Positions 223 to 26,531 of a stretch of 64,000 bases of DNA are shown one piece after another. The notes under the pieces were generated by a model that was not told where the DNA came from, ran no database searches, and worked only from the letters and a program-made list of their open reading frames with translations. Within the stretch, counting starts at the first letter, position 1; every line of letters starts with the position of its first letter. The position numbers were made by a program, and so were the translations under genes. The DNA comes from a virus, in IMG/VR virus record IMGVR_UViG_3300034068_000566, positions 31,290 to 95,289 of that record; one strand, given 5' to 3'.

Positions 223-675
223 ATGGCAACTACTACTAAAGACTTTAAAGTTAAACACGGTTTATCCGTAGTCAATGGAGGTTCCTTTGGTGGAACGGTA
301 GTAGTTGCTACCCCAACCGAAAATACACATGCAACAACAAAAGCATATGTTGATGGTCTTGCTGGGATAACAATAGCAACAACAGCACCAGCAATAACAA
401 GAAATGGACAGTTCTACTTTAATCCAGATACCTACCACTTATCAGTCTCTTATGACAGTGAGTGGTTAGTTTTGGCAAATTATATGGACACTGTAAATCT
501 TCCACAGCACATCCACGACACCTCTATTGGTGGAAATGGCTTACTAACTACAATTTTCCAGGATGCAGGATTCTATTATGAAGTCCCACTATCATTTAAT
601 GATGCTAGTTTTTATAATAATGCTATCTGGGAAATTCTTTTTGACGGCGGTATGGCAGTAGATAACTTCAACTAA
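223..675 (+). CDS. Tail-fibre-associated structural protein
   Basis: KDFKVKHGL N-terminus, ATPT..HATTKAYVD fibre motif, C-terminal DAG/DGG motifs; GAGGA RBS. Confidence 0.65.
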   Translation: MATTTKDFKVKHGLSVVNGGSFGGTVVVATPTENTHATTKAYVDGLAGITIATTAPAITRNGQFYFNPDTYHLSVSYDSEWLVLANYMDTVNLPQHIHDTSIGGNGLLTTIFQDAGFYYEVPLSFNDASFYNNAIWEILFDGGMAVDNFN

Positions 676-680
676 ATTGA

Positions 681-689
681 TGTTATAAT
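681..689 (+). promoter_or_regulatory. Extended -10 promoter (TGTTATAAT)
   Basis: One of many TGnTATA(A/C)T motifs in intergenic gaps. Confidence 0.6.
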
Positions 690-728
690 AATATAAGTAA
701 TGGGTAGCACCCAAAAGGAGAACTAAAT

Positions 729-2942
729 ATGGCAACTAGAATGCAACAGCGCAGAGGAACTGCAGCTCAGTGGATATCTTTAAATGATGGAGATGGCCCA
801 ATTCTTGCTGCTGGCGAAATTGGTTTTGAGAGCGATACTGGTCAGTTTAAGATCGGTAATGGAGTCAGCCATTGGACAGATCTTTCATATTTTAAAGACT
901 TTGGCGATCTAGGCGGATCATTAGACGACTATATTGAACTTACAGCTAAAGGAGCAGCATCTGGAGTTGCAGAACTCGATGCTACATTTAATGTTTTAAC
1001 AAAGACTGGCGTTGTTTTTGAAGGCGCTACAGCAAATGATTTTGAGACAACTTTACAGGTAACAGAGCCAACAGCTGATCGGGCTATCACACTTCCAAAT
1101 GCTACAGGAACAGTTGTTCTTGCAGATGGCAGCGGTAACGTAACAGTATCAGGAGACTTAACAGTATCAGGTACAACTACTATCATTGACAGCACAACAA
1201 TTAATGTTCAAAATAACATTAGATTTGAAGGAACAACACCAAATGATTTTGAGACAAGCTTAACAGCAGCAGATCCAACTGCAGACAGAACTATCACACT
1301 TCCAGATGCCACAGGAACAGTTGTTCTTGAAGATGGAACTCAAACACTATCTAATAAGACAATTAATTTAAATGCAAACACTTTAAACACTACTCTTGCT
1401 CAATTAAATACAGCAGTATCTGATGCCGATGTTGCTTCACTTGCTGGATCAGAAACATTAACTAATAAAACTTTAACATCTCCAAATGTTAATGAAGCAG
1501 TTGCTCTTACAGCAACATCTACAGAGTTAAATATTCTTGACGGAGCAACCGTAAGTGCTGCAGAACTAAATATTCTTGATGGCGTAACATCTTCAACCGC
1601 AGAACTAAATATTCTTGACGGTGTTACATCAACAGCTGCAGAATTAAACGTACTTGATGGAATTACTTCATCTACTGCAGAACTAAATATCCTTGACGGA
1701 GTAACAGCAACCGCAGCACAAATAAATGTTCTTGGAAGCCTAACTGCTACTGCAGCAGAATTAAACATTCTTGACGGTGTTACATCTACTACAGCAGAGA
1801 TAAACAAACTTTCTGGAGTAACCGCTACATCGGCTGAAATTAATACTTTGTCTGGAATTACTTCCACTGTTGCAGAATTAAATATTCTAGATGGTGCACT
1901 TTTATCTGTAACAGAATTAAACTATCTAGATGGTGTTACTTCTGCAATTCAAACACAGATTGATGCTAAAGCAGATACTGCTGCCCCTACATTTACAGGA
2001 ACAGTTGTTCTTCCATCTACAACATCAATTGGAACAGTAACCTCAACAGAATTAGGATATATTAGTGGAGTAACCTCAGCAATTCAAACTCAGATATCTG
2101 GAAAGCAATCAGTTGTTGCTAATGTTTCAGATGTTGAGATTGGATATTTAGATGGCGTTACTTCTCCAATTCAAACTCAATTAGGAAATAAGCAAGCAGT
2201 TGTTGCCAATGTTTCAGATACTGAAATAGGATACCTTGATGGAGTTACATCCGCAATTCAGACCCAACTTGACGCTAAACTAGCATCTGCAACAGCAGCA
2301 TCAACTTATGCCCCTCTAGTATCTCCAGCACTTACTGGAACACCTACAGCACCATTGGCAGTAACTGGAACTAATACAACGCAGGTTGCTACAACAAGTT
2401 TTGTACAGCAAGAACTTGCCGTATTAACAACTGGCGCACCAGCAGCACTAAATACGCTTGATGAACTGGCAGCAGCCCTAGGTGATGATGCTAACTATGC
2501 AGCTACAATTACAACAGCACTTGGAAATAAGGCTCCACTTGCCTCTCCTACATTTACAGGAACAGTTACTCTTCCTGCAGCAGGAATTGTATTTACAGAT
2601 GGCACACAAGCAAAAGAAGGTGTTCCTTCTCGTACACCAATTATTGCAAAGACAGATTCTTACACACTGTCAGCATTAACTGAAAGAGATTCATTGATTG
2701 AAGTTGCAAAAGCAACAGCAACAACAGTTACAATCCCAACAGATGCAACTCTAAACTTCCCAATTGGAACATCTATTGATATTCTTCAAACTGGAGCGGG
2801 ACAAGTAACGATTGCCCCAGTATCAGGAACAGTTACAGTCAATGCTACACCTGGATTAAAGCTTCGTACAACTTGGTCATCTGCAACTCTTCTTAAAAGA
2901 GCAGCAAATACTTGGGTTGTATTTGGCGATCTAACAGCGTAA
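729..2942 (+). CDS. Long tail fibre protein with Mtd_N-like N-terminal domain and internal repeats
   Basis: RMQQRRGTAAQW...LAAGEIGFESDTGQFKIGNG N-terminus; TAAELNILDGVTS and EIGYLDGVTSAIQTQ repeats; C-terminal FPIGTSIDILQTGAGQVT...WVVFGDL fibre domain; AAGGAG RBS. Confidence 0.85.
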   Translation: MATRMQQRRGTAAQWISLNDGDGPILAAGEIGFESDTGQFKIGNGVSHWTDLSYFKDFGDLGGSLDDYIELTAKGAASGVAELDATFNVLTKTGVVFEGATANDFETTLQVTEPTADRAITLPNATGTVVLADGSGNVTVSGDLTVSGTTTIIDSTTINVQNNIRFEGTTPNDFETSLTAADPTADRTITLPDATGTVVLEDGTQTLSNKTINLNANTLNTTLAQLNTAVSDADVASLAGSETLTNKTLTSPNVNEAVALTATSTELNILDGATVSAAELNILDGVTSSTAELNILDGVTSTAAELNVLDGITSSTAELNILDGVTATAAQINVLGSLTATAAELNILDGVTSTTAEINKLSGVTATSAEINTLSGITSTVAELNILDGALLSVTELNYLDGVTSAIQTQIDAKADTAAPTFTGTVVLPSTTSIGTVTSTELGYISGVTSAIQTQISGKQSVVANVSDVEIGYLDGVTSPIQTQLGNKQAVVANVSDTEIGYLDGVTSAIQTQLDAKLASATAASTYAPLVSPALTGTPTAPLAVTGTNTTQVATTSFVQQELAVLTTGAPAALNTLDELAAALGDDANYAATITTALGNKAPLASPTFTGTVTLPAAGIVFTDGTQAKEGVPSRTPIIAKTDSYTLSALTERDSLIEVAKATATTVTIPTDATLNFPIGTSIDILQTGAGQVTIAPVSGTVTVNATPGLKLRTTWSSATLLKRAANTWVVFGDLTA
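1510..2280 (+). repeat. Coding tandem repeats in the fibre shaft (13-aa ELNILDGVTSTAA units, then ~24-aa EIGYLDGVTSAIQTQ units)
   Basis: About 11 degenerate 39-nt units followed by longer related units, visible in both DNA and protein. Confidence 0.85.
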
Positions 2943-2972
2943 TAAAAATTCAATAAAAAATAGGAGATATAA

Positions 2973-3959
2973 ATGGCATCAGGTAAAAAAATAGGCAAGA
3001 AGTCTCAAGCGTCAAATGACTTCTTAGAGCCAATGGCTCCTACTGGTGTAACAGCAACAAATGTTGGAACTGGAAGAGCCTTTAATAATGGAGCAGCTAC
3101 AGTTACATTTTCTTTGCCTGCACTATCTCCTGCTGCTTCATCATTTACTGTAACCTCATCACCTGGCGGATATACTGGCACTGGAGCATCTTCTCCAATT
3201 ACAGTAGCTGGACTTCAATCTGCCACAGCCTATACATTTACCGCAACAGCTACTAATGCTGCAGGAACATCTGTAGCCTCTTCTGCTTCAGCTTCTATTA
3301 CCGCAACAACAGTTCCAGCAACTATGTCTGCTCCAACCCCAACTGCTGGAGTTAATCAAAACTCAATTGCTTTTTCAGCACCAGCAACTGGTGGATCTAC
3401 AATTACAGGATTTACCGTAACAGGCTCTGATGGTACATCTGGAACTGGAGCATCTTCTCCAATTGTTATTGCAGACACTGGTGGAACTTCTCAGACATAT
3501 ACAGTTAGGGCAACTAATGCTAACGGTACTGGTTCAGCTTCATCTGCATCTGGATCTATTACCACTACCCCGCCATTTTTCCCACCATTCTTCCCACCTT
3601 TCTTCCCGTTCTTCCCACCATTCTTCCCTCCGTTCTTCCCTCCGTTCTTCCCACCATTCTTCCCATTCTTCCCGTTCTTCCCACCATTCTTCCCTCCGTT
3701 CTTCCCACCTTTCTTCCCACCATTCTTCCCATTCTTCCCACCATTCTTCCCACCTTTCTTCCCTCCATTCTTCCCACCGTTCTTCCCATTCTTCCCATTC
3801 TTCCCATTCTTCCCACCATTCTTCCCACCTTTCTTCCCACCTTCATTCCCATTCTTCCCTCCATTCTTCACAGCACCTTCTTGCCACACTTGCAATGGCT
3901 CTGATGCCTACTGGGGCTACTATGGCTGTGGTTACCCAGGAGAAGTTGTTTGCAACTAA
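2973..3959 (+). CDS. FN3-like domain protein with 100-aa Pro/Phe repeat and Cys-rich C-terminal tip (probable virion fibre/decoration protein)
   Basis: Two FN3-like repeats (APTGVTAT...GASSPITVAGL..ATAYTFTATATNAAG; PATMSAPT...YTVRATNANG), then (P)PFF x27, then CHTC...C...C; AGGAG RBS. Confidence 0.8.
   Translation: MASGKKIGKKSQASNDFLEPMAPTGVTATNVGTGRAFNNGAATVTFSLPALSPAASSFTVTSSPGGYTGTGASSPITVAGLQSATAYTFTATATNAAGTSVASSASASITATTVPATMSAPTPTAGVNQNSIAFSAPATGGSTITGFTVTGSDGTSGTGASSPIVIADTGGTSQTYTVRATNANGTGSASSASGSITTTPPFFPPFFPPFFPFFPPFFPPFFPPFFPPFFPFFPFFPPFFPPFFPPFFPPFFPFFPPFFPPFFPPFFPPFFPFFPFFPFFPPFFPPFFPPSFPFFPPFFTAPSCHTCNGSDAYWGYYGCGYPGEVVCN
3570..3869 (+). repeat. (PPFF/PFF)n low-complexity coding repeat
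   Basis: 300 nt: 18 PPFF, 8 PFF and 1 PPSF (46 P, 53 F, 1 S); Pro codons vary at the third position. Confidence 0.95.
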
Positions 3960-4007
3960 GCAGATATCAATGATTATGATATACTTGTATAAAGAAAAGG
4001 AGAACTA

Positions 4008-4454
4008 ATGATTAAAGATATTGATATTCAACATAGTTTTAGTAGAGATAAGTTAGCAGGAGCACCATTAGTATTTGTTATTGATGGGGAGTGTCTTTAT
4101 AATTTTAATGCAACACTTCCTGGCATTGACCTATTTACAAAAAATAAAGGCATTACAGATATATCTGCTGACTACCCAGAGCACGATGGGGCTACACTTC
4201 AAATTGTTAAAGAAAATGATGAAATTGAAGTCTATCAAACTAACGAATACTTTGGTTCAGTTTTACTAAGCAATCCAACAGTTCTTGATTTAAATGATTA
4301 TCCTTATGGACATCATGTTATGTCTCCAGATGCCTCATTTGATGGAGAAAAGTTTATTATTAAAAATAAAACGGTTGCTGAACATGTACGATTAACGGAA
4401 TGGCATATTCACAATCCTAAAAATCCAAATTATGTACCCCATCCAAACGTTTAA
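4008..4454 (+). CDS. Hypothetical protein, possibly a fibre-associated chaperone
   Basis: AAGGAG RBS and upstream TGATATACT; FVIDGE...VLLSNPTV...FDGEKF pattern resembles small proteins that follow phage fibre genes. Confidence 0.55.
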   Translation: MIKDIDIQHSFSRDKLAGAPLVFVIDGECLYNFNATLPGIDLFTKNKGITDISADYPEHDGATLQIVKENDEIEVYQTNEYFGSVLLSNPTVLDLNDYPYGHHVMSPDASFDGEKFIIKNKTVAEHVRLTEWHIHNPKNPNYVPHPNV

Positions 4455-4490
4455 TTTTTTTATTATATAATTACAACAAAGGAGTTTGTT

Positions 4491-4724
4491 TTGTCAGAAA
4501 AAAGCGCATGGGAAAAATATAAAGAAAAAAATGGGGTAACTCCACTAGATATGCTTAATCCACATACAAAGCGTATACCACATGAATCTGCTCAAAAAAG
4601 ATTTGATATTTGTAAGGAGTGTCCAGAATTAATAAAACTTACTTCTCAGTGTAAAAAATGTGGTTGTTTCATGAAAGTTAAGACTACTCTTGAGATTGCT
4701 AAATGCCCACTAAATAAGTGGTAA
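4491..4724 (+). CDS. Small Cys-rich metal-binding protein (DUF6171-like)
   Basis: R..IC..CPEL...QCKKCGCFM..K......CP..KW; AAGGAG RBS, TTG start. Confidence 0.7.
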   Translation: MSEKSAWEKYKEKNGVTPLDMLNPHTKRIPHESAQKRFDICKECPELIKLTSQCKKCGCFMKVKTTLEIAKCPLNKW

Positions 4725-4758
4725 CACTCGCTATATATTGCTTTAAATAGCACTTTTA

Positions 4759-4767
4759 TGCTATAAT
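4759..4767 (+). promoter_or_regulatory. Extended -10 promoter (TGCTATAAT) for the oxygenase cluster
   Basis: Consensus motif about 30 nt upstream of the ATG at 4798. Confidence 0.65.
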
Positions 4768-4797
4768 AAAACTATACCATTAAAAGATAGGAATCAC

Positions 4798-5517
4798 ATG
4801 CAAGCATATGATGAAAACGATAATCACTGGTTTACTAAAGATAGATCAGAAACAGCCTCAACAAGAATTTCCCGATTGATGCCTCAAAGTAATATCCCGA
4901 TTAGCAATCCAGGATTAGGTTTAAATATTTATCATAATGTTTTTTCAAAAGATGATTCAGATAGATATATCAATACTCTTGAGCACAATCTTTCAGGGGA
5001 TAATAAGTATAAGTGGTCTGAAGCACAGGTAACAAACTCTACTGTTCCAATCAAAAAAGCAAGAGATGCTGTAGACTTTAAATATAAGCAAGAAAATCTT
5101 GGTCCAAGAGATGAACATAATGCTGATCTGATTGATTTGCATGAAGAGATATATCAAAAACTAAAATTGTGCATAGATGATTATGCACACTACTGGGGAA
5201 TAAATGTTACATATTATGAAGCATTTAACTTTGTAAAGTATGAAGGTGAAGGAACTCACTTTAATATACATGCTGATCATGGTCCAGCTTATAATTGTAC
5301 TGTTTCTGCAGTAATTTATATTAATGATGATTACGAAGGTGGAGAAATTAAGTTTCCAAGATTAGATAATTTTGTTCATACCCCAAAGGTTGGAGATATA
5401 GCAATCTTTCCTTCAAACTATATATATGAGCATGCTTCTTTGCCAATGAAAACAGGAACAAAATATTGTGTTGTCATTATGACAGACATTAATCTTTTAG
5501 GTCACACAGGAAATTAA
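4798..5517 (+). CDS. 2OG-Fe(II) oxygenase, prolyl 4-hydroxylase-like (#1)
   Basis: HAD...YINDDYEGGEIKF...FPSN..YEH.....GTKY. Confidence 0.9.
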   Translation: MQAYDENDNHWFTKDRSETASTRISRLMPQSNIPISNPGLGLNIYHNVFSKDDSDRYINTLEHNLSGDNKYKWSEAQVTNSTVPIKKARDAVDFKYKQENLGPRDEHNADLIDLHEEIYQKLKLCIDDYAHYWGINVTYYEAFNFVKYEGEGTHFNIHADHGPAYNCTVSAVIYINDDYEGGEIKFPRLDNFVHTPKVGDIAIFPSNYIYEHASLPMKTGTKYCVVIMTDINLLGHTGN

Positions 5518-5530
5518 CATAGGAGAAAAT

Positions 5531-6202
5531 ATGAATACAGAAAATACAACATCAGCACCTTGGAGCAGCTATGAAGAGATTGCTCCAGGAATTTTTGTTT
5601 ACCACGACGTTCTGCCAACAGAATTAAACATTATTGATAGGCTGGAAGAGGTTTTGAATAATGACAGACCAAACTATAATTGGCAACCAGCCTATGTTGG
5701 TTATCAACAAAGAATGCCAGAGTATAGAGATTGCGTTGATTTTAAATTTAAGAAAACAGACATTGAAAGAGATGTATCTCCAGACTCCTTAAAACTTCAG
5801 GGCATTTGGCAAGACTGTTATGATAGACAAAAGTTAGCAGTAGAAGATTACTGCAGACGCTTTAATATTAATAACCTAAGATACTGGGAAGCTTTTAATT
5901 ACATTAAGTATGAGCCTGGTCAACACTTTATGGAACATCATGATCATGGATTTTCATATAACTGTACATTGTCTCTAGTTGCTTATATTAATGATAATTT
6001 TGAAGGCGGAGAATTATTCTTTAGACTTCAAGGAATTACGTATATTCCAAAAGCTGGGGATGTTGTATTGTTCCCATCTAACTTTATGTATCCACATCAA
6101 GCTAAGGTTGTTCATTCTGGGACAAAGTATTCTTTAGTAACAATGCTTGACTATAGCGATAAGTATCACACTCCAGAGATGTATCAAGAGACTGGATCAT
6201 AA
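5531..6202 (+). CDS. 2OG-Fe(II) oxygenase, prolyl 4-hydroxylase-like (#2)
   Basis: HHD...YINDNFEGGELFF...FPSNFMYPH.....GTKY; clear paralogue of #1 (RDxVDFK, EAFNxxKYE, DHG..YNCT). Confidence 0.9.
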   Translation: MNTENTTSAPWSSYEEIAPGIFVYHDVLPTELNIIDRLEEVLNNDRPNYNWQPAYVGYQQRMPEYRDCVDFKFKKTDIERDVSPDSLKLQGIWQDCYDRQKLAVEDYCRRFNINNLRYWEAFNYIKYEPGQHFMEHHDHGFSYNCTLSLVAYINDNFEGGELFFRLQGITYIPKAGDVVLFPSNFMYPHQAKVVHSGTKYSLVTMLDYSDKYHTPEMYQETGS

Positions 6203-6915
6203 TGTCAATTATCACTGCTTATAGAAAAACACCAATGGCATTGAATATAGAGCCAATGTCTATAAAAAGAGATTGGATGGATGAAACTCCACAGGGTCAT
6301 GCCTATAGATGTCATCCAGTCACATCTGCCAATGTTATTGGCTGGAGTATATCTTCACCAGTAGACATAAAGTTCATCTGGAATGGTGTTAATGATACAA
6401 GCGGAGATAATGTTACTATACTTGAAGGAAAAGAGTATGTTTATACTGGAAGAGGACAGTCAACAGTTAGTTTTAATACTGGATTTATTTTAAGAACAGA
6501 TGAAAAAACTAGCGTATTGACAATAACTCCACAAAACTATTTTAATGAAGATGTTGAGGTTATGTCCTCTCTCATATCTACTTCTTTTTTAAATACAGAT
6601 TTTCCCTTAGCAATTAAATGCAAGGTAGCAAATAAAGAAATTACTATTAAGGCAGGTTCACCCATAGCAACCATAATTCCTATCTCTTTAACTTCTTTAA
6701 AAGATGAGTCTGTAGAGATAGTCAACTTTGTACACACACAAGAATATTCTGATGCTTTAAACTCATATGGTAAAGCAGCTCAAGAAGTAAACCAGAGTGG
6801 AGAGTGGACTGACTGGTATAGAAATGCTGTAAATGAAAAAGGCGAGTCTATTGGATCACACGAAGTTAAAAATTTAAAATTAAACGTTATTGATAATACA
6901 GGAGGCAAACAGTGA
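6202..6915 (+). CDS. DUF6065-like protein
   Basis: RDWMDET..HAYRCHPV..AN..GW signature; GSPIATIIP. Confidence 0.7.
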   Translation: MSIITAYRKTPMALNIEPMSIKRDWMDETPQGHAYRCHPVTSANVIGWSISSPVDIKFIWNGVNDTSGDNVTILEGKEYVYTGRGQSTVSFNTGFILRTDEKTSVLTITPQNYFNEDVEVMSSLISTSFLNTDFPLAIKCKVANKEITIKAGSPIATIIPISLTSLKDESVEIVNFVHTQEYSDALNSYGKAAQEVNQSGEWTDWYRNAVNEKGESIGSHEVKNLKLNVIDNTGGKQ

Positions 6916-7637
6916 AGATCATTGAGTTTATAACTAATAGGCCTTGGCTAAATAAAGATAGTAAATCAAAGCCAATACCAATTTCAAGATCAATGCCACA
7001 GTGGTATAAAGAAGCTGATAGGTTTGCTAAAAAACCAGATGGAGAATATTGGATAGGACCAGACAAAGGAAAGATCCCTACATGGAAAGCCTGTCCTGCA
7101 ATTCTTGATATTTTAACAACTGGGTATAGCCTTGTAACCCCCTGTGATATAGAATTTTTCCTTGATGGCGCAGGGCAAATTGATGTTAAAACTGAAGATC
7201 CAATGTATAAAGATTTTGCTACAAGAAGAACTCCCATGCCACAATTTCGTCATCCAGAAGGATATTATAATTATCACTTTGCATGGATGCCAGATTGGGC
7301 AGTAAAGGTTCCAGATGGCTATAGCGTTTTATATGTTGCTCCATTTAATAGATACGATCTTCCAATTATGACAGTTTCTGGAATTATTGATAATGACAAA
7401 GTTAACTTGCCTGGATCTTTTCCATTTTTTGTACAAAAAGGTTGGACTGGAGTTCTTCCAGCAGGAACTCCTTATGCTCAGTTGCTTCCATTTTTGAGGG
7501 AAGATTGGAAATCCGAAATAACTGTTCCAACTGCTTCTGAAATGATGAATCATAATATAGAAAATAGTAAAAAATATCGTGTCCCAGATGGCGGAGTTTA
7601 TCAAAAAGAAGTCTGGACTAAGAGATTCTACGAATAG
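6912..7637 (+). CDS. DUF6065-related (possibly dUTPase-like fold) protein
   Basis: PQWYK...KACP.I.D...GY...PCD...PDGYS.L..P.N...SGIID.D...GTPYAQLLPF.RE.W pattern seen beside phage oxygenases. Confidence 0.6.
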   Translation: MKIIEFITNRPWLNKDSKSKPIPISRSMPQWYKEADRFAKKPDGEYWIGPDKGKIPTWKACPAILDILTTGYSLVTPCDIEFFLDGAGQIDVKTEDPMYKDFATRRTPMPQFRHPEGYYNYHFAWMPDWAVKVPDGYSVLYVAPFNRYDLPIMTVSGIIDNDKVNLPGSFPFFVQKGWTGVLPAGTPYAQLLPFLREDWKSEITVPTASEMMNHNIENSKKYRVPDGGVYQKEVWTKRFYE

Positions 7638-7641
7638 GAAA

Positions 7642-7650
7642 TGGTATAAT
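7642..7650 (+). promoter_or_regulatory. Extended -10 promoter, leaderless geometry
   Basis: TGGTATAAT then 5 nt then ATG at 7656; no SD between them. Confidence 0.65.
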
Positions 7651-7655
7651 AAAAC

Positions 7656-8336
7656 ATGAAACAAAATAACGAGTCGTACACAGTAGTTAAAAGAACACCA
7701 TCTATAACTCCATCTGGTTGGTTTGGAGATAGCAAAGACATGATTGTCGAGCTAGAAAATTTTATGACCCCAGAAGAGATTGAGTTTTTAGAAAAAGCTG
7801 CTAAGTCTTTGACAATTTGGGATGTAACTGAAAGCCATATGAATGAAAATGGGACTGTTACATATGACTCAAACTATTGGAAAGACAGAGTTGCTACTAG
7901 CCCAACATTAAATAAAAATGATCCAACCATCGCACCAGTAATTGCTGGATTATTTCAAAGATTAAAACCAATTGTTGAAGAATTTTATAAGGTAGAAGTC
8001 GTTCCAACTGGAACAACTATTGTTAAATGGCTTCCTGGACAATTTCAAAAACCTCATGCGGATAAAGAGTTACATGAAGGTCCTGATGCTGGAACTCCTA
8101 ATGACTTTCCAAATTATGACCTATCTAGTCTATTTTATTTAAATGATGACTATGAGGGTGGAGAATTATACTTTCCTATACAAGGTGTACAGTTTAAGCC
8201 TAAAAAAGGAGCTGCATACTTCTTCCCAGGAGATAAAAACTATATTCATGGAGTTACTGAAATCAAAAGTGGCCTAAGATTTACATGTCCATTTTTTTGG
8301 GAAATTACTAAGCATACAGGAGATAGGCAACCATAA
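7656..8336 (+). CDS. 2OG-Fe(II) oxygenase, P4H-like (#3)
   Basis: HAD...YLNDDYEGGELYF...FFPG..NYIHGV....GLRF. Confidence 0.9.
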   Translation: MKQNNESYTVVKRTPSITPSGWFGDSKDMIVELENFMTPEEIEFLEKAAKSLTIWDVTESHMNENGTVTYDSNYWKDRVATSPTLNKNDPTIAPVIAGLFQRLKPIVEEFYKVEVVPTGTTIVKWLPGQFQKPHADKELHEGPDAGTPNDFPNYDLSSLFYLNDDYEGGELYFPIQGVQFKPKKGAAYFFPGDKNYIHGVTEIKSGLRFTCPFFWEITKHTGDRQP

Positions 8337-9223
8337 TGACATATCCTTGGCCAAACAATAATAAACTTGAGTCAATAGAAATATATCCAAATATTGTTGT
8401 GTACAAAAATCTTTTTAAAGATATTGAAAAATCTTATAAAATTTTAACAGATTCTTTATCAGAAACAGAAGATGGTTTGTTTAATCCTTGGACCACTTGG
8501 TCTGTTTTTGGGGAATACTTAAATCCAATAACTCCTCAATTTTCAATGAATGATAGATATGGAAATATGAAAGATGTAGAAACATCAACAGAAACGCAAG
8601 AAAATCATAAAAACTTTGTAATTGAAATGATGGACAATTTTTATTTAGCTACAGAAGACTATATCAAGAGCCATAATTTAGACGTAGATTTAGATGCAAT
8701 GTCTATAAATGATGATGGGAATCCTATTCCAACATGGAGATGGGCTGGTGGAACTATAGGTAAATATCATGTAAGTAATGAAGACAGTAGAGTTGGAATG
8801 AACTATCATTCAGACTATATAAGAGAGCAAGGTCATACCCCAGGTTATAAGTTTGTAATAACATCTACAATATATTTTAATGATAACTATGAGGGTGGAG
8901 AAATTGATTTTGCAATGGGAGACAAGCTTGTAAAGTATAAACCAGAAGCAGGAGATGTTTTAGTTTTTCCATCAGGGCACCCAGACTATCTGACAGAAGA
9001 AGGAAAACCATATTTACATGGAGTTATGCCATCATATAAAAATAATAAGTTTTTGTCAAGAATGTATTGGCAAAAATATCAAAAAGGAACTGATGATTGG
9101 TATGAAAAAGAAAAAGAGTTTGGAAAAGATGTTTGGGCGGAAATGCAAAAAGATTTAGACGAACAGTTTAGACTAAAGCACCCGCAAAGAGCTGTAATAG
9201 AAAATGGAGTAAGAATACAATGA
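8336..9223 (+). CDS. 2OG-Fe(II) oxygenase, P4H-like (#4)
   Basis: HSD...YFNDNYEGGEIDF...FPSG...YLHGV.....NKF. Confidence 0.88.
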   Translation: MTYPWPNNNKLESIEIYPNIVVYKNLFKDIEKSYKILTDSLSETEDGLFNPWTTWSVFGEYLNPITPQFSMNDRYGNMKDVETSTETQENHKNFVIEMMDNFYLATEDYIKSHNLDVDLDAMSINDDGNPIPTWRWAGGTIGKYHVSNEDSRVGMNYHSDYIREQGHTPGYKFVITSTIYFNDNYEGGEIDFAMGDKLVKYKPEAGDVLVFPSGHPDYLTEEGKPYLHGVMPSYKNNKFLSRMYWQKYQKGTDDWYEKEKEFGKDVWAEMQKDLDEQFRLKHPQRAVIENGVRIQ

Positions 9224-9978
9224 ACCTAGAGAATAAAGTTAGGCTAACAAAAGACATAGTTGTTTATAAAAATTTTATAAGCAAAGAGGATTGTCAAAAG
9301 ATGATTCAAGCATTAGATGCTCAGGCAGATAATGGTGCACTCTCTTGGATGCCTATTTCATTTTATGAATCATACTCTTCTGTCCTTCCACAAGACAATG
9401 ATCAAGAGTTGCTTGATGCTGAACTATCTCCAACTATTTTTTCAGACATTGAAAAAACAATGCCAGAGGCAATTGCTTCAGTTCATGACTTAGATCCAAA
9501 GACAATTTCTAAGATTGGATACCATACACAAAAGTGGGAGCCAGGAGCATACGCAAGAATTCACTCTGATAATACAGATGCTCAAGGAAATTCAGGAGCA
9601 TTTACAAGAAGTCGTTATGCAGGGTTCCTATATCTAAACGATGACTTTGAAGGGGGACTGCTTAAGTTTCCAAGTCATAACATAGAGATTAAACCAGAAG
9701 TTGGAATGCTTGCTGTTTTTGACGGGGGATTTAGCAACATGCACGAAGTCTCCCTAATAGAAAGTGGAGTAAGATATACCATTGGATCTTTTTGGGATGA
9801 CAGAGAAGAAGATGCTTACCCACAAGAATTAAGAGATGCCTGGGCTGCAGAAATGAAAGAGACTAGAGCAAAACAAGAAATTGAAAGAGCCGAATGGCAA
9901 GATCTTTTAAAAGAAGGATGGAAGTTGGATGCTGCTGGAAATAAATATAAGGTAGAAGATTTAGGGAATAATGTCTAA
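9220..9978 (+). CDS. 2OG-Fe(II) oxygenase, P4H-like (#5)
   Basis: HSD...YLNDDFEGGLLKF...MHEV....GVRYT. Confidence 0.9.
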   Translation: MNLENKVRLTKDIVVYKNFISKEDCQKMIQALDAQADNGALSWMPISFYESYSSVLPQDNDQELLDAELSPTIFSDIEKTMPEAIASVHDLDPKTISKIGYHTQKWEPGAYARIHSDNTDAQGNSGAFTRSRYAGFLYLNDDFEGGLLKFPSHNIEIKPEVGMLAVFDGGFSNMHEVSLIESGVRYTIGSFWDDREEDAYPQELRDAWAAEMKETRAKQEIERAEWQDLLKEGWKLDAAGNKYKVEDLGNNV

Positions 9979-10630
9979 TTTTCTAACAAGCATACTAAAA
10001 GAAAATAATTTTCAGGTTGAAGAAGTTACTGATGATATTGTTTTAGTTAAAGATTTTTTTTCTAAAGATGATCTAGATCAAGTTTTTAATATTATAGACT
10101 CAACTCCAAATGAAGAGTGGTTTATAGAATATCATGCTAACTTAAAAAACTTTTGTATGCAAAAATTTGGCAGAGATGATGTTGATAATTTAGTTGCAGA
10201 AGGTAAATTTGAAATAACTCAAAACTGGCAAGATAAAAATTTAAATATAGGACAACACCCATTTCAAAAAACCTTGTTCGATAGACTAAATAATTTAGTT
10301 CAAAATGTTGACAACACAATAGAGTTAAGTGGTTTTGCAACTATTCAAAGGATGCAAGAGGGTGTCGAGTTAAAAGCTCACACAGATCAAGATACAGATC
10401 CATCGATTAGGTACGCTGCCATTCTGTATTTAAATAATGATTATGTTGACGGAGAGTTGTTTTTTCCAAACAATGGCTTAGAGTTTAAGCCTGATCCTGG
10501 GTCAATGCTTATTTTTCCAGGCACAGCAGAATATAATCATGGAGTAAAGCATGTAGGTCCAGGACCAATTAGATATGTTTTGGTTGGATTTATTAAGGTT
10601 AAAAATTTTTATGATAACAATAAATACTAA
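9971..10630 (+). CDS. 2OG-Fe(II) oxygenase, P4H-like (#6)
   Basis: HTD...YLNNDYVDGELFF...FPG...YNHGV.....IRY. Confidence 0.9.
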   Translation: MSNFLTSILKENNFQVEEVTDDIVLVKDFFSKDDLDQVFNIIDSTPNEEWFIEYHANLKNFCMQKFGRDDVDNLVAEGKFEITQNWQDKNLNIGQHPFQKTLFDRLNNLVQNVDNTIELSGFATIQRMQEGVELKAHTDQDTDPSIRYAAILYLNNDYVDGELFFPNNGLEFKPDPGSMLIFPGTAEYNHGVKHVGPGPIRYVLVGFIKVKNFYDNNKY

Positions 10631-10641
10631 AGGAGAAATAA

Positions 10642-11373
10642 ATGAATAAAGAACTACTAGACCCAAAGGTATACTATTATACTGACGCAATTGAAAATTT
10701 TGACAAATTTAAACAAGTTTGGAAAGAGTTAGACACTCTTGAGCAATATGATGAGTTAGGGGTAAATGTTTGGAACCCTTGGACATCTTCTAACGATAAA
10801 ACTTTTATCTACGGAGAAACAAAAACTTTTGATGCTAATGCAATAAGCAATCTTAGTGGAGATGTAGCAGAAAAAAGTAAATATATTTATGATGCCGTTA
10901 TGACTACAATGTATAATGTTTGTAAAGACTATGCATCCTCTATGGGAGACTTTGATGAGCCAAGACTTTTTCCAACATTTAACATAAAAAAGTACAATAC
11001 TGGAATGGCTATGGGGGCGCACTTTGATCAACTCGATGGCGATAAGACATTGAGATATTCTTTGGTAATGTATTTAAACGATGACTGTGAAGGCGGAGAA
11101 ATTTCTTTTCAGTTAAAGGACTATGATGGTGGATGGACTAGCTCAGAAGGTTGGGTAAGTGGCGCACCAGCAGTAGAGTTAGACTATGATCTTGCAGTTG
11201 CAAACAAAGCTATTAGTTTTGGTGTAAAACCTAAAGAAAATAGCGTTGTAATATTTCCAGCATATGCTCCATATTTTCACACGGCACACACAGTTAAGTC
11301 TGGCGTAAAGTATATGATTCCTGGACATTGGATCCATAACAATATGGAGCTTAATCAAAGCCAGAGCATGTAA
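10642..11373 (+). CDS. 2OG-Fe(II) oxygenase, P4H-like (#7)
   Basis: HFD...YLNDDCEGGEISF...FPA..PYFHTAH...GVKY. Confidence 0.9.
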   Translation: MNKELLDPKVYYYTDAIENFDKFKQVWKELDTLEQYDELGVNVWNPWTSSNDKTFIYGETKTFDANAISNLSGDVAEKSKYIYDAVMTTMYNVCKDYASSMGDFDEPRLFPTFNIKKYNTGMAMGAHFDQLDGDKTLRYSLVMYLNDDCEGGEISFQLKDYDGGWTSSEGWVSGAPAVELDYDLAVANKAISFGVKPKENSVVIFPAYAPYFHTAHTVKSGVKYMIPGHWIHNNMELNQSQSM

Positions 11374-12042
11374 TTGAAAACAGCAATTGTAACTGGAGCA
11401 AGTAAGGGTGTTGGATTAGCAACAGTTAAGCGCTTGTCTGAAAATGGGTATAAAGTAATTGCTGTTTCAAGAAACCTTTCAAAAGTCTCTGAACTAATAT
11501 CTGATAATGTTGAGGTATATAATCTAGACATTACAGACTCTAAAGCAATAGAAGTGTTCTTTGAAAAATACAAAGACATTACTTTAGACCTTTTAGTTAA
11601 TAATGCTGGAGGAGGGTCAGGCCCAACTCATATTATTAATGAGACTCCAGAAAACTTTAGAAAAGCTTATGATATAAATGTAACTGGCCCTATGTACCTA
11701 TCTCAACTATTTGCTCCATGTATGGAAAAGTCAGAGTCTCCAACAATTATCTTTATTACTTCTTTTGGAGGAAAGGTACCATATCGTGGTGGAGGAAACT
11801 ATACAAATGCGAAGAGAGGTGAACGTGGTCTTATTGATACAATGAGACTTGAGTTTCCTCAATTTGGGATTAAGATTACAGAAATCTGTCCAGCAACTAT
11901 TGATACCCAAGAACAAAAACGGGATCAAGCATTAACCGCAGAAGATTTAGCAGAAGCAATTTACTGGGTAGGATCATTACCAAGTCATGTTAATATAAAT
12001 GAAATTGAAATCTGTCATATTCACAGCAGCAAGTATGGTTAA
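11374..12042 (+). CDS. Short-chain dehydrogenase/reductase (YdfG-like, NADP-type)
   Basis: TGASKGVG, LVNNAG, catalytic S...YTNAK, LPSHVNINEI C-terminus. Confidence 0.9.
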   Translation: MKTAIVTGASKGVGLATVKRLSENGYKVIAVSRNLSKVSELISDNVEVYNLDITDSKAIEVFFEKYKDITLDLLVNNAGGGSGPTHIINETPENFRKAYDINVTGPMYLSQLFAPCMEKSESPTIIFITSFGGKVPYRGGGNYTNAKRGERGLIDTMRLEFPQFGIKITEICPATIDTQEQKRDQALTAEDLAEAIYWVGSLPSHVNINEIEICHIHSSKYG

Positions 12043-12136
12043 CTATTTCTTTATAACACTTTTGTTATATAAAAGTGCTAACCATAAACAATAACTTTAT
12101 AGATTGAAATCAAGCGTAGAATTGTTTTAAATTACC

Positions 12137-12145
12137 TGCTATACT
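12137..12145 (+). promoter_or_regulatory. Extended -10 promoter (TGCTATACT) for RNR, followed by an 8-bp hairpin at 12150-12174
   Basis: Consensus motif; AGTACTTT/AAAGTACT inverted repeat; AAGGTGG RBS. Confidence 0.55.
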
Positions 12146-12204
12146 TAGGAGTACTTTCAATTCTACAAAGTACTAATACAATAATAGAAAGGTGGCATAC
12201 TTAA

Positions 12205-14190
12205 ATGTCAGATGTTTTTTCATTTCGTTTATCAGAGGATTTTGTAACAAAATATAGTAATACTCCAGCACCGTTTGGATTTGCAGATGCGGGGGAAAAC
12301 TCTTTAGGAGAAATTACTTTTATTCGTACCTATTCTCGTGTAAAAGAAGACGGAACAAAAGAACGTTGGCACGAAGTTTGTCGTCGTGTTATTGAAGGCA
12401 TGTATTCAGTTCAAAAAAATCATGCTAAAGATAATCGTCTAGGCTGGAATGACAATAAAGCTCAGAAGTCTGCACAAGAAGCATTCCAAAGAATGTTTGA
12501 ATTAAAGTGGACCCCTCCAGGTCGTGGTATGTGGACATTTGGAACAGCCATGACTATGGAAAAGAAAAACTCAGCAGCGCTACAAAACTGTGCAATGGTT
12601 TCTACAAAAGACCTTGACAAGAATGATCCAGGGGCTTTGTTTGCTTGGGTTATGGATGCCTTAATGCTTGGTATTGGTGTAGGGTTTGACACAATAGGAC
12701 AAGAGAAGAATTTTTCTATTTATGCTCCAACAGAACCAGCAGTTATCTTTGAAATTCCAGATACTCGTGAGGGCTGGGTAGAATCAGTACGTATACTATT
12801 AAACTCTTACCTAAGATCAAATCAACCTATCCAAAAGTTTAATTATGACCTTATCAGACCTCTAGGAGCACCAATTAAGGGCTTTGGAGGGGTCGCTAGC
12901 GGTCCAGCACCACTCATTGCATTACACGATAAGATCAATCATGTCATAGGCTCTAGAGCAGGGGAAATCCTAGATTCTCGTGCTATTACAGACATCGTCA
13001 ACCTTATTGGAACATGTGTTGTTTCAGGAAATGTCCGTCGTTCTGCAACCTTAGCTTTAGGTGCTCCAGGAGATGAAGATTTTATTAATTTAAAAAACCC
13101 AGAAGTATTCCCAGAACGTAACTCCTATGATTCAGATAATCCAGGATGGGCATGGATGTCTAATAATTCTATTGCAGCAACAGTTGGAATGGATTATGAA
13201 AAATATACAGATTTAATTGTAAACAATGGAGAGCCAGGTTTTATTTGGCTTGATGTTGCTCGTAACTATGGTCGTCTTGCAGATCCAGCGGATGGAAAAG
13301 ACTATCGTGTTATGGGCTTTAATCCTTGTGCGGAGCAGCCATTAGAATCATACGAACTTTGTACACTTGTAGAAGTGCACTTAAACCGTCATGATTCCAA
13401 GACTGTAACTCTTCTTCCAACACATTGGCAGCAAACAAACGGTATTATGCAACGCAACCGTCGTATTGGTACATCTCTTACTGGTATTGCATCATTTGCA
13501 GATCAAAATGGATTACCAATTGTTCGTGAATGGATGGACGAAGGTTATAACAAGATACGTTATTATGATAAAAAATATTCAGAGTGGTTGTGTGTTCGTG
13601 AATCAATTCGTGTAACAACTGTTAAGCCATCTGGATCAGTTTCAATTCTTTCTGGTGCAACCCCTGGGGTTCACTGGGGACCTGGAGGAAACTTCTTCCT
13701 TCGTGCTATTCGTTTTGGAAACACAGATCCAATGCTTCATTTGTTTAAAGCAGCAGGGTATAAAATTGAAGACGATCTAGTATCAGCAAACACATCAGTA
13801 GTTTATTTCCCAGTTAAATCAGGTCATCCAAGATCTGAAAAGGATGTAACCCTGTTTGAAAAGATAAACCTTGCTGCAACAGCTCAAAAGTATTGGTCTG
13901 ACAATGGAGTATCTGTAACTCTATCCTTTGATAAGGAGACAGAGTCAAAGCATGTTCCAACAGTTTTGCATATGTACGAGGGACAACTAAAGGCAGTATC
14001 ATTCCTTCCAATGGGAAATCATACTTATCCACAACAGCCATATACTCAGATCACAGAAGAAGAATATGATTACTATGTTGGTCGTATCGGTCATATTGAT
14101 TTCTCTGCTATTTATGACGGGGTAGATAATCTTGAGGCACTTGGCGAAAGCTATTGCACTACAGACTACTGTGAGATTAAAATTAAATAG
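12205..14190 (+). CDS. nrdJ: Class II (adenosylcobalamin-dependent, monomeric RTPR-type) ribonucleotide reductase; apparent internal ~15-aa deletion
   Basis: RTYSR, PPGRG, ALQNC, GNVRRSA, NPCAEQPL..YELCTL, TTVKPSGSVS, C-terminal CTTDYC; no small-subunit gene adjacent. Confidence 0.92.
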   Translation: MSDVFSFRLSEDFVTKYSNTPAPFGFADAGENSLGEITFIRTYSRVKEDGTKERWHEVCRRVIEGMYSVQKNHAKDNRLGWNDNKAQKSAQEAFQRMFELKWTPPGRGMWTFGTAMTMEKKNSAALQNCAMVSTKDLDKNDPGALFAWVMDALMLGIGVGFDTIGQEKNFSIYAPTEPAVIFEIPDTREGWVESVRILLNSYLRSNQPIQKFNYDLIRPLGAPIKGFGGVASGPAPLIALHDKINHVIGSRAGEILDSRAITDIVNLIGTCVVSGNVRRSATLALGAPGDEDFINLKNPEVFPERNSYDSDNPGWAWMSNNSIAATVGMDYEKYTDLIVNNGEPGFIWLDVARNYGRLADPADGKDYRVMGFNPCAEQPLESYELCTLVEVHLNRHDSKTVTLLPTHWQQTNGIMQRNRRIGTSLTGIASFADQNGLPIVREWMDEGYNKIRYYDKKYSEWLCVRESIRVTTVKPSGSVSILSGATPGVHWGPGGNFFLRAIRFGNTDPMLHLFKAAGYKIEDDLVSANTSVVYFPVKSGHPRSEKDVTLFEKINLAATAQKYWSDNGVSVTLSFDKETESKHVPTVLHMYEGQLKAVSFLPMGNHTYPQQPYTQITEEEYDYYVGRIGHIDFSAIYDGVDNLEALGESYCTTDYCEIKIK

Positions 14191-14221
14191 GTCTTCTGTG
14201 GTAAAATAGGTTAGGAGAACT

Positions 14222-25138: not shown

Positions 25139-25719
25139 TGGCAAACGATAGTTTATTAAATACTCCAGTTTTATGGATTAACAAATATCTACAAAGTAAG
25201 ATTGAGTTACTTACTGACATAGAAACGCCATTTTTCCCATCAACCCCATCAACAATAAATGATTTAACTCAATACTTTCCTGATGGTGGAGTCATGGCTA
25301 CATGGGACAGATTAATTAAAATGAATAAAAAAGGCTTTCCTCATATTAAGTGTGAGCAGCTGCTTTATTATTTTTATGCTACTGCAGAGAACAGTGTAGA
25401 GAATATGATACAAATTCAAGAGTCAGTATTAAGACTAATGGACAGGTTTGATGAAACTGCAGAAGAGATTAACGCATGGTGTGCAAATAGAAGCATAAAC
25501 ATTGGAACAACACAATCTCCAGAGATAATTGACAACCAATTCTATTTCCACAACTTTAAAGTCTATCAGCTGGAAGAAACCAGAGACATCATTGATTTTG
25601 GAACAGCTCGTACATACGGTGGAAATAAGATAATCATTGATTTTGATTATCATCAAATGCCAGATTTAATTAACACAGAAGGACCCGAAAGCCGTTTGGC
25701 TACTAAAATAATTATATAA
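25138..25719 (+). CDS. Tail terminator-like protein
   Basis: Immediately upstream of the major tail gene. Confidence 0.5.
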   Translation: MANDSLLNTPVLWINKYLQSKIELLTDIETPFFPSTPSTINDLTQYFPDGGVMATWDRLIKMNKKGFPHIKCEQLLYYFYATAENSVENMIQIQESVLRLMDRFDETAEEINAWCANRSINIGTTQSPEIIDNQFYFHNFKVYQLEETRDIIDFGTARTYGGNKIIIDFDYHQMPDLINTEGPESRLATKIII

Positions 25720-25787
25720 AACCCGTGTTATACTTTATATGAGGAAACACGCCCACAATTTAATACAATCGAAAGAGGTGGAAAATT

Positions 25788-26459: not shown

Positions 26460-26479
26460 TACAACTTAATAATACAGGG

Positions 26480-26517
26480 TTGCCCTTCATCTTCGGATGC
26501 GGGGCAATTTTGTTTTT
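26480..26517 (+). terminator. Rho-independent terminator with cUUCGg loop
   Basis: TTGCCCTTCATC-TTCG-GATGCGGGGCAA followed by TTTTGTTTTT. Confidence 0.8.
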
Positions 26518-26531
26518 GGTATACTGTATTA

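What the first reader, a model, noticed from the sequence alone, without database searches (positions are those of the whole stretch)
3570..3869. Almost pure Pro/Phe 100-mer maintained at protein level
Seen: 18 PPFF, 8 PFF and 1 PPSF. Pro codons vary (CCA/CCT/CCG) while the amino-acid pattern is fixed, and runs of 3-4 PPFF are punctuated by PFF. This points to selection on the protein rather than simple slippage. Established: Phe-Phe, Pro-Phe-Phe and Hyp-Phe-Phe peptides self-assemble into rigid structures, and PPFF is a shared motif of the ribosomal cyclic peptides antamanide and cyclolinopeptide A. Inference: a hydrophobic rod, adhesive or membrane-inserting element, or a multi-core peptide precursor.
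Basis: partly seen in the sequence, partly recalled or inferred. Interest (0 to 1): 0.75.

Follow-up and report, generated by a model that had tools for sequence, protein, structure and literature searches.

The report
Proline-phenylalanine stalk on phage fibre protein
An uncultured lake-type phage encodes, right after a tail-fibre gene, a small protein whose last third is a 100-residue chain of almost only proline and phenylalanine. Selection keeps this undescribed tract, and it travels with a block of seven collagen-type proline-hydroxylase-like genes that may modify it, though no chemistry has been shown.

Summary
That gene has a good ribosome-binding site, two confidently folded FN3 domains and a 29-aa four-cysteine tip.

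The tract is not an accident of slippage alone:
- Over 100 related phage contigs keep the same pattern at 18-181 residues, always in frame with what follows.
- Phe is coded by TTC about 9:1 inside the tract, against about 1:4 in the rest of the same genes.

Copy number still changes fast. Contig pairs with identical flanks differ by in-frame 45- and 111-nt indels, which could also be assembly error.

The gene always follows a tail-fibre gene. Its N-terminal 200 aa are constant and its C-terminal tips are hypervariable.

Among the 73 loci whose flank also reaches the neighbouring RNR gene, a Pro-rich tract always comes with a tandem array of 5-9 P4H-like oxygenases. Pro-poor aromatic tracts in the same slot never do. 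However, those phages still carry 1-5 scattered oxygenases, and physical linkage is a confounder.

Best reading: a fibre-associated stalk or adhesive segment that is probably hydroxylated. The RiPP and membrane-insertion readings are not supported. I found no description in the papers searched. Earlier notes of this scan reached a similar reading on other genomes.

The parts
729..2942 (+). Tail-fibre gene (737 aa) directly upstream. Its ends are conserved and its middle is variable.
   Evidence: Pfam Mtd_N, E 4.9e-11. About 20 PHROG tail-fibre families match. The first ~60 aa and last ~175 aa are found in ~90% of 103 related loci, the middle in 20-30%.
2962..2966 (+). Ribosome-binding site AGGAG, with 6 nt between it and the ATG
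   Evidence: Read directly from the sequence.
2973..3959 (+). Gene of the FN3-Pro/Phe protein (328 aa, P0001)
   Evidence: ORF list and translation. 2656 relatives at E<=1e-3 among 8000 candidates scored.
2973..3035 (+). Conserved N-terminal peptide (aa 1-21, motif S-N-D-F-L-E-P with a short helix). Candidate docking segment.
   Evidence: K5, S11, N15, D16, F17, L18 and P20 are nearly invariant in 60 sequences. AF2 predicts a helix at 12-17. The docking role is an inference.
3036..3569 (+). Two FN3 domains (aa 22-199)
   Evidence: Pfam fn3, E 1.2e-5. AF2 pLDDT is 97-98 over residues 21-200. Foldseek hits FN3 proteins of uncultured phages and minor tail proteins of actinobacteriophages.
3570..3869 (+). 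The Pro/Phe tract: 18 PPFF, 8 PFF, 1 PPSF
   Evidence: AF2 shows no secondary structure, pLDDT about 60. TTC 52: TTT 1.
3870..3959 (+). 29-aa tip with four Cys, plus the stop codon. It belongs to one small tip family (C-x-G-S-D-x-Y...G-C-x-Y-x-G).
   Evidence: Aligns with the tips of L003, L019 and L033. That set holds 36 distinct Cys-rich tips with more than 25 different Cys spacings. AF2 pLDDT is below 50.
4008..4454 (+). 148-aa gene of unknown function, an optional neighbour
   Evidence: No Pfam or PHROG hit. Present in only some related loci. A paralogue follows the genome's other Pro/Phe-bearing protein.
4491..4724 (+). Cys-rich 77-aa DUF6171 gene, an optional neighbour
   Evidence: Pfam DUF6171, E 8e-7. 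phrog_13558.
4798..6202 (+). Two P4H-like 2OG-Fe(II) oxygenases (4798-5517, 5531-6202)
   Evidence: PF13640, E 2e-10 and 4e-12. Best PDB hits are Bacillus anthracis prolyl 4-hydroxylase 3itq/5hv0. HxD...H...K/R is kept.
6202..7637 (+). Two paralogous phrog_7084/DUF6065 genes (6202-6915, 6912-7637) with a dUTPase-like fold
   Evidence: Pfam DUF6065, E 2e-32. Both hit phrog_7084. AF2 pLDDT 86.6. Foldseek's best hits are dUTPases, E 3e-4, TM 0.5-0.66 on the target.
7656..11373 (+). Five more P4H-like oxygenases (7656-8336, 8336-9223, 9220-9978, 9971-10630, 10642-11373), mostly with overlapping stop and start codons
   Evidence: PF13640 over the cut-off for each. The metal triad is invariant in all seven. 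PDB hits are P4H, P3H1 and PBCV-1 P4H 5c5t.
11374..12042 (+). Short-chain dehydrogenase that closes the enzyme block
   Evidence: Pfam adh_short, E 1.4e-40. It is 78-100% identical across Pro-rich loci. tblastn at E<=1e-6 found no match to it in any true Pro-poor locus; the one listed match, L080, is the misclassed short PFF tail.

Best explanation
The 100-mer is the translated, selectively maintained, non-globular stalk of a tail-fibre-module protein. The conserved N-terminal peptide and two FN3 domains form the constant part, probably docked on the conserved C-terminal domain of the fibre encoded just upstream. The Pro/Phe tract is an uncharged, extended segment, probably of polyproline-II type. 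Its length is tuned by in-frame gain and loss of 9- and 12-nt units. It carries a hypervariable Cys-rich tip at its far end. The tract is the likeliest substrate of the seven P4H-like oxygenases encoded in the same co-directional, tightly packed gene run. Pro-to-Hyp conversion would make this otherwise very hydrophobic polymer wettable and stiffer. The product would serve as a spacer or adhesive element in host contact. Shown: the gene, frame, domain folds, family-wide conservation, codon bias, synteny, co-variation with the array, and intact catalytic residues. Inferred: virion location, polyproline-II shape, hydroxylation and the adhesion role.
For: The tract is in frame, with an RBS and FN3 folds. 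The same P(P)xF pattern occurs in 66 distinct relatives at 13-181 aa. In it, x is F 1202, Y 78, S 44, and the last F never changes. Frame is kept into about 165-aa Hint domains in 39 distinct relatives. TTC:TTT is 2276:289 inside the tract against 118:411 outside it in the same genes. The gene always follows the fibre gene, whose C-terminal 175 aa are conserved. It closes a ~14-kb fibre-gene module. PP[FY]F tails also end 720-aa multi-FN3 tail proteins and small proteins on other phage backbones, mostly near oxygenases. Short PF motifs link domains in a second fibre-module protein of this genome. Loci with a Pro-rich tail have 5-9 oxygenase ORFs downstream (n=64). Loci with a Pro-poor tail in the same slot have 0-2 (n=41, after reclassing L080 from the 42 counted). 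Among the 73 loci with RNR in reach the association is perfect, with 9 state changes on the RNR tree. All seven enzymes keep HxD...H...K/R, and their best PDB hits are prolyl 4-hydroxylases. In this genome the tract has the highest local Pro density: 19 Pro in 40 aa.
Against: There is no chemical, proteomic or structural evidence of hydroxylation or of virion location. The tail-coding end and the array are adjacent, so a single recombination block can move both. Only 3 independent contrasts rest on well-supported branches (p 0.25). Five near-complete Pro-poor phages lack any PP[FY]FPP[FY]F tract yet hold 1-5 scattered PF13640 genes, so this enzyme family also has other substrates. Two dUTPase-fold genes and RNR sit in or next to the array, which leaves room for a nucleotide-related role. 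AF2 gives only pLDDT ~60 for the tract. The host is unknown: no WhiB and no tRNA genes were found.
Confidence: 0.5

Rival explanations
1. The tract is an unmodified passive linker or sticky segment of the fibre-module protein. The oxygenase block next to it acts on something else (another protein, a nucleotide or a small molecule), and the co-variation reflects only physical linkage.
For: Pro-poor phages keep 1-5 scattered oxygenases without any PF tract. Two dUTPase-fold genes and RNR flank or interrupt the array. Two paralogues give weak Tet_JBP hits. Well-supported independent contrasts number only 3. Cyanophage 2OG oxygenases have been proposed to serve 2OG balance or DNA repair (PMC3037559).
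Against: The association is perfect in 73 loci across about 9 exchanges. The same pairing recurs on distant backbones, where DUF6065 identity is only 22-30% and contigs reach 202 kb. The enzymes are P4H-type by Pfam cut-off and by their best PDB hits. The enzyme genes continue the fibre operon with overlapping stops and starts.
Confidence: 0.3
2. The tract is a multi-core precursor that is cut into PPFF-type (cyclic) peptides, as in the antamanide and cyclolinopeptide families.
For: PPFF is the shared motif of those peptides (PMC9266943, listed). Tailoring-type enzymes lie downstream.
Against: There are no recognition or spacer sequences between units. Pfam and PHROG searches of the neighbouring genes returned no protease or macrocyclase family. 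The tract is fused to two folded FN3 domains and capped by folded or Cys-rich domains. Short PF stretches act as inter-domain linkers. Unit order is irregular.
Confidence: 0.03
3. The tract inserts into or crosses the host membrane (a lysis or injection aid).
For: It is extremely hydrophobic and carries no charge over 100 residues.
Against: A Pro every 3-4 residues excludes a membrane helix. Backbone groups would stay unsatisfied in lipid (inference from established protein chemistry). There is no signal peptide or flanking basic anchor. The gene sits among fibre genes, not lysis genes.
Confidence: 0.05
4. The tract is an assembly artefact or a neutral slippage product with no function.
For: Short-read assemblies handle a 300-nt array of 9/12-nt units poorly. 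Contigs with identical flanks differ in copy number. All six frames are open.
Against: The tract is present and in frame in more than 100 independent assemblies from many samples. Its codon bias runs opposite to the genome's. Substitutions are position-specific. The exact pattern is absent from about 185,000 prokaryote genomes.
Confidence: 0.02

Closest known systems
Chlorovirus PBCV-1 prolyl 4-hydroxylase (A085R; PDB 5c5t) and that virus's own Pro-rich repeat ORFs (Eriksson et al. 1999, cited in PMC7019647)
   Same: A virus encodes both a P4H-type enzyme and proteins with Pro-rich short tandem repeats that are its likely substrates. One window oxygenase hits 5c5t weakly (E 0.047).
   Different: The PBCV-1 repeats are charged (PAPK type, from my own knowledge of that paper) and there is one enzyme. 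Here the repeat is uncharged Pro/Phe, the virus is a tailed phage, and seven paralogous enzymes plus an SDR form the block. Hydroxylation is not shown here.
Multiple 2OG-Fe(II) oxygenase genes of marine T4-like cyanophages (Sullivan et al. 2010, PMC3037559)
   Same: These phages carry numerous paralogous 2OG-Fe(II) oxygenases of unknown substrate: 14 of 16 cyanomyovirus genomes.
   Different: No Pro/Phe-tailed protein has been linked to those arrays. The proposed roles there were 2OG balance or DNA repair. I did not test cyanophage genomes for such tails.
Hydroxyproline-rich structural proteins (plant extensins, mussel foot protein 1)
   Same: They have Pro-rich short repeats with aromatic residues, form extended non-globular rods or adhesives, and are modified by 2OG-dependent prolyl hydroxylases (established knowledge).
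   Different: The window protein has no Ser-Pro(n) or Lys-rich motifs, no signal peptide and no Tyr in its tract. It is made in the cytoplasm of an infected bacterium.
Pro-Phe-Phe / Hyp-Phe-Phe self-assembling tripeptides (Bera et al., PMC8113556)
   Same: They share the tripeptide unit. In those peptides a single hydroxyl on Pro changes the material properties of the assembly.
   Different: Those are free synthetic tripeptides packing in crystals. Here the units are covalently chained inside a protein. No assembly data exist for it.
Phage T4-type distal adhesin gp38 on fibre gp37 (established knowledge)
   Same: A small protein is encoded right after the fibre gene. It has a conserved attachment part, a repetitive non-globular part and hypervariable host-facing segments.
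   Different: gp38 uses glycine-rich polyglycine-II motifs. There is no sequence similarity, and attachment of P0001 to the fibre is only inferred from the conserved gene junction.

Membership tests
Fibronectin type III domain proteins of phage tails | FN3 beta-sandwich domain recognised by profile and by fold | tested here: met
   Pfam fn3 E 1.2e-5, 25.8 bits against a 25-bit cut-off. AF2 gives two beta-sandwiches at pLDDT 97-98. Foldseek hits phage FN3 and minor tail proteins.
Collagen-type P4H substrates | X-Pro-Gly triplets (Gly every third residue) | tested here: not met
   The tract contains no Gly at all.
Polyproline-type P4H substrates (plant, algal and PBCV-1 type) | Pro-rich repeat able to adopt polyproline-II shape and accepted by the enzyme | not testable with these tools
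   The tract is 46% Pro with 19 PP pairs and has no predicted secondary structure. Acceptance by an enzyme needs an assay.
Multi-core RiPP precursors (orbitide / MSDIN type) | Cores flanked by conserved recognition sequences | tested here: not met
   Units abut without any spacer.
Multi-core RiPP precursors (orbitide / MSDIN type) | Dedicated protease or macrocyclase gene | tested here: not met
   Pfam or PHROG searches of the genes from 223 to 17932 returned oxygenase, DUF6065, DUF6171, SDR, RNR and fibre families. No peptidase family was returned.
Extensin-like hydroxyproline-rich glycoproteins | Ser-Pro(3-5) motifs and a secretory signal peptide | tested here: not met
   There is no SPPP motif. 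The N-terminus is Lys-rich and has no hydrophobic core.
FG-repeat cohesive domains (nucleoporin type) | Phe-Gly dipeptides separated by hydrophilic spacers | tested here: not met
   The window tract has no Gly. Relatives in the same slot do carry PFG/AFGF repeats, so the resemblance holds for them only.
Bacterial intein-like (BIL) / Hint-capped forms of this family | C-terminal ~165-aa Hint domain starting with Cys or Ser and ending in His-Asn | tested here: not met
   The window protein ends in a 29-aa Cys-rich tip. Many relatives have the domain, and their profile hits BIL 2lwy at E 4e-8.
P4H-type 2OG-Fe(II) oxygenases (the seven neighbours) | His-x-Asp...His iron triad plus a basic residue that binds 2OG | tested here: met
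   H158, D160 and H212 are invariant, and K/R is kept after the S-G motif in all seven. PF13640 is over its cut-off for each.

The most novel reading that the evidence does not exclude
Aquatic phages build their fibre tips from a genetically encoded Pro/Phe polymer. A dedicated battery of paralogous prolyl-hydroxylase-type enzymes (plus an SDR) converts it into a hydroxyproline-phenylalanine material. This would be the first enzymatic hydroxylation of a phage virion protein. It would also give a first substrate for the long-unexplained 2OG-oxygenase arrays of environmental phages.
Probability: 0.35. Interest if true: 0.85.

Novelty: new variant of a known kind. Interest (0 to 1): 0.62.

Why it matters
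Tandem 2OG-Fe(II) oxygenase genes are among the commonest unexplained genes of aquatic phages (PMC3037559). A repeat that co-varies with such an array, sits in the same operon and consists half of proline gives a concrete, cheap test: co-express the proteins and look for +16 Da. If the test is positive, phage appendages would join collagen, extensins and mussel glue as hydroxyproline materials. A natural (Hyp-Phe-Phe)n polymer would also interest peptide-materials chemists. If it is negative, the tract is still an undescribed, strongly selected Pro/Phe stalk. It is used on several phage protein scaffolds, has fast-changing length and carries hypervariable tips, all of which bear on how uncultured phages vary host contact.

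Tried and rejected
- Megablast and tblastn of the region and of P0001 against 50,697 phage records found nothing. No cultured relative is available. The capsid protein is only 40% identical to that of ~129-kb Streptomyces phages.
- One DNA pattern that I mis-specified (FYPPFFPPYFPPFF) returned nothing. The corrected pattern gave 50 loci.
- T-run avoidance does not explain the TTC bias. TTT-TTC (105) and TTC-TTT (144) pairs are about equally common, and TTT-TTT (17) is near the number expected. The cause of the bias stays open; translational selection is possible.
- I first read the DUF6065/phrog_7084 genes as general partners of aromatic tails. They lie just behind 23 of 41 Pro-poor tails, but 18 lack them. 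Their dUTPase-like fold next to RNR fits nucleotide metabolism equally well.
- Host assignment failed: no WhiB and no tRNA genes.
- Papers: searches for PPFF plus phage, for proline-phenylalanine repeat plus phage, and for hydroxyproline/prolyl hydroxylase plus tail fibre found no description of such tails.

Full report
**The sequence**

Window 3570-3869 lies inside one + strand ORF, 2973-3959 (328 aa, P0001). In that frame the 300 bases give F53, P46 and S1. Tandem Repeats Finder sees a 12-nt period (27 copies) and a 66-nt higher-order period with 87% matches. This shows recent block duplication. All six frames are open over the repeat, so an open frame is not evidence in itself.

The frame is fixed by four other features:
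- an AGGAG ribosome-binding site 6 nt before the ATG;
- two FN3 domains upstream that AlphaFold2 folds at pLDDT 97-98;
- a C-terminal tip that aligns with the tips of relatives;
- in many relatives, a ~165-aa Hint domain that stays in frame behind tracts of very different length.

**The virus**

The window is bases 31290-95289 of a 95,289-bp IMG/VR virus contig judged 88% complete. It encodes a portal, protease, capsid protein, terminase and a 3654-aa tape-measure protein. It is therefore a long-tailed siphovirus-type phage. Its capsid protein is 40% identical to those of ~129-kb Streptomyces phages. No close cultured relative exists in the phage collection. The host is unknown. One relative of P0001 is filed in NCBI under 'uncultured Caudovirales phage'. 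Calling these freshwater phages rests on my recollection of that study and of the IMG sample series, and on earlier notes of this scan.

**Selection and slippage together**

I extracted the homologous gene from 80 related viral contigs, which gave 66 distinct proteins.
- All carry the tract at the same place. It starts with the same P-F-F-P-P-F-F-P-P-F-F-P-F-F and is 13-181 residues long.
- In 1355 parsed units P(P)xF, x is F 1202, Y 78, S 44 and G 10. Leu, Ile, Val and Cys are equally reachable from TTC but are nearly absent. The final F never changes.
- Inside the tracts Phe is TTC 2276: TTT 289. In the rest of the same genes it is 118: 411. In the window the figures are 52: 1 against 87: 447.
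- Pro third positions vary freely, and CCG is enriched.

A neutral AT-biased drift would have filled the tract with TTT, so the synonymous choice is itself maintained. The reason is open, because simple avoidance of T runs does not fit.

Copy number is nevertheless labile. Contig pairs from different samples have 570/570 and 90/90 identical flanking bases yet differ by in-frame 45-nt and 111-nt indels. I cannot separate real polymorphism from short-read assembly error.

The exact pattern PPFFPPFFPPFFPFFP is absent from one genome each of about 185,000 prokaryote species.

**Context**

The gene order g150, fibre, FN3-tail gene, (small variable genes), enzyme block, RNR is conserved in all related loci.
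- The upstream 737-aa gene is a tail fibre (Mtd_N and many PHROG fibre families).
- Its first 60 and last 175 residues are conserved in ~90% of 103 loci, its middle in only 20-30%.
- The first 200 residues of the FN3 protein are found in all loci.
- So conservation straddles the gene junction. Variability sits in the fibre shaft and in the far end of the FN3 protein.
- That far end is hypervariable. There are 36 distinct Cys-rich tips with more than 25 Cys spacings, bacterial-intein-like Hint domains (profile hit to 2lwy, E 4e-8), short basic or acidic ends, or nothing.

In the whole genome the gene closes a ~14-kb run of fibre-like genes. This layout resembles a distal adaptor or adhesin docked on a fibre. 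That reading is an inference. AlphaFold2 gives the tract no secondary structure at pLDDT ~60 and the tip below 50.

**The tract as a module**

A scan of viral contigs for PPYFPPFFPPYF found 50 loci, some on contigs of up to 202 kb. There the tail ends three kinds of protein: 720-aa multi-FN3 tail proteins, 100-175-aa small proteins, or a protein with an Ig-like He_PIG domain.

In this genome a second fibre-module protein lies outside the window at contig 25301-26722. It uses 16-20-aa PF stretches as linkers between globular parts and again ends in a Cys-rich tip.

Relatives with the same FN3 part can carry Pro-poor aromatic repeats instead, of the T-P-F-G-A-F-G-F or F-T-P-Y-S type. The common denominator is therefore an uncharged, aromatic, helix-breaking repeat.

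**Link to the hydroxylase-like genes**

Directly downstream and co-directional, mostly with overlapping stops and starts, lie:
- seven PF13640 oxygenases;
- two phrog_7084/DUF6065 genes;
- one SDR.

All seven oxygenases keep the HxD...H triad and a basic 2OG-binding residue. Their best solved relatives are prolyl 4-hydroxylases (3itq, 5hv0), followed by lysyl and prolyl-3 hydroxylases and PBCV-1 P4H.

With an HMM built from these enzymes I counted oxygenase ORFs behind each tail gene that had at least 8 kb of flank.
- 64 loci with Pro-rich tails have 5-9 oxygenase ORFs.
- 41 loci with Pro-poor tails in the same slot, before the same RNR (80-88% identical), have 0-2. This count follows reclassing L080, a short PFF tail that my parser had misclassed among the 42 Pro-poor loci.
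- Among the 73 loci whose flank reaches RNR the association is perfect. The states interleave, with 9 changes on the best RNR tree.

Three limits apply. Only 3 contrasts rest on strongly supported branches (sign test p 0.25). The tail-coding end and the array are contiguous, so one recombination block can carry both. Five near-complete Pro-poor phages have no PP[FY]FPP[FY]F tract anywhere yet keep 1-5 scattered PF13640 genes, against 6-10 in Pro-rich phages, where most sit in the array. The tandem array, not the enzyme family as such, goes with the Pro-rich tract.

The phrog_7084 genes have a dUTPase-like fold and sit near RNR. This keeps a nucleotide-related role for part of the block open.

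**Verdict on readings**

A fibre-associated stalk or adhesive segment that is probably hydroxylated fits best (confidence about 0.5). The same stalk left unmodified, next to an unrelated enzyme block, is the main rival (0.3).

The multi-core peptide reading fails on three counts: no spacers between units, no processing enzyme, and fusion to folded domains. Membrane insertion is chemically unlikely. An artefact is excluded by recurrence in more than 100 assemblies and by the codon bias.

**Novelty**

Searches of the held paper library found no description of Pro/Phe tails in phages. The nearest published parallel is PBCV-1, which has one P4H and charged Pro-rich repeats (cited in PMC7019647). 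The unexplained multiple oxygenases of cyanophages are a further parallel (PMC3037559).

Earlier notes of this scan reached the same substrate hypothesis on other genomes and on this window's wider region. I re-tested their main claims here. The co-variation and the dUTPase-like fold hold. The statement that phages 'carry tails and enzymes together or lack both' is too strong, because Pro-poor phages still hold scattered oxygenases.

Noticed in passing
window 27626-38590: A 3654-aa tape-measure protein ORF, which implies an unusually long siphovirus tail. It holds a collagen-like GGPAGP stretch near 32276 and a CAG run at 37386-37449.
   Followed up: partly
own genome contig C1:25301-26722 (upstream of the window): A second fibre-module protein (473 aa) that uses short PF stretches (A-P-P-F-F-P-F-F-P-P-F-F-P-P-Y-F and twice-repeated A-P-F-F-P-P-Y-F-A-P) as linkers between globular parts. 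It ends in a Cys-rich tip and is followed by a paralogue of window gene 4008-4454.
   Followed up: partly
L036:9682-10188, L097:10709-11224 and 37 other distinct relatives: Many homologues cap the aromatic repeat with a ~165-aa bacterial-intein-like (Hint) domain. It starts C-[IV]-x-x-x-T (Ser in some) and ends V-H-N-K. The usual T-x-x-H His is often replaced by Pro. It occurs behind both Pro-rich and Pro-poor repeats. A self-cleaving cap or a ligation step is possible.
   Followed up: partly
window 6202-7637: The two DUF6065/phrog_7084 genes are distant paralogues with a predicted dUTPase-like beta-barrel and a G-x-I-D-x-D motif. No solved-structure sequence match was found. Copies also lie between the tail gene and RNR in 23 of 41 Pro-poor loci.
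   Followed up: partly
window 3570-3869 and relatives: Phe is coded almost only by TTC inside the tract, although the genome prefers TTT about 5:1. CCG for Pro is also enriched. The cause was not established.
   Followed up: partly
proteins P0061 and P0098 (database relatives): Their tails are His/Ser-rich strings that look like the +1 frame of a Pro/Tyr/Phe repeat. These are likely frameshifts in assemblies or gene calls. I judged this by eye from the sequences.
   Followed up: no
L016 (8217-9179 and 9995-10969), L080 (9117-9956 and 9995-10936): Some related phages carry two tandem copies of the FN3-tail gene with different Cys-rich tips.
   Followed up: no
window 14222-17935: A 1237-aa conserved gene after RNR, with only a weak Laminin_G_3 hit. 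It is present in both Pro-rich and Pro-poor phages (36-53% identity).
   Followed up: no
own genome contig C1:21277-22353: A fibre-module protein with G-A-D-G-A-D collagen-like triplets. It could be another substrate for P4H-type enzymes.
   Followed up: no
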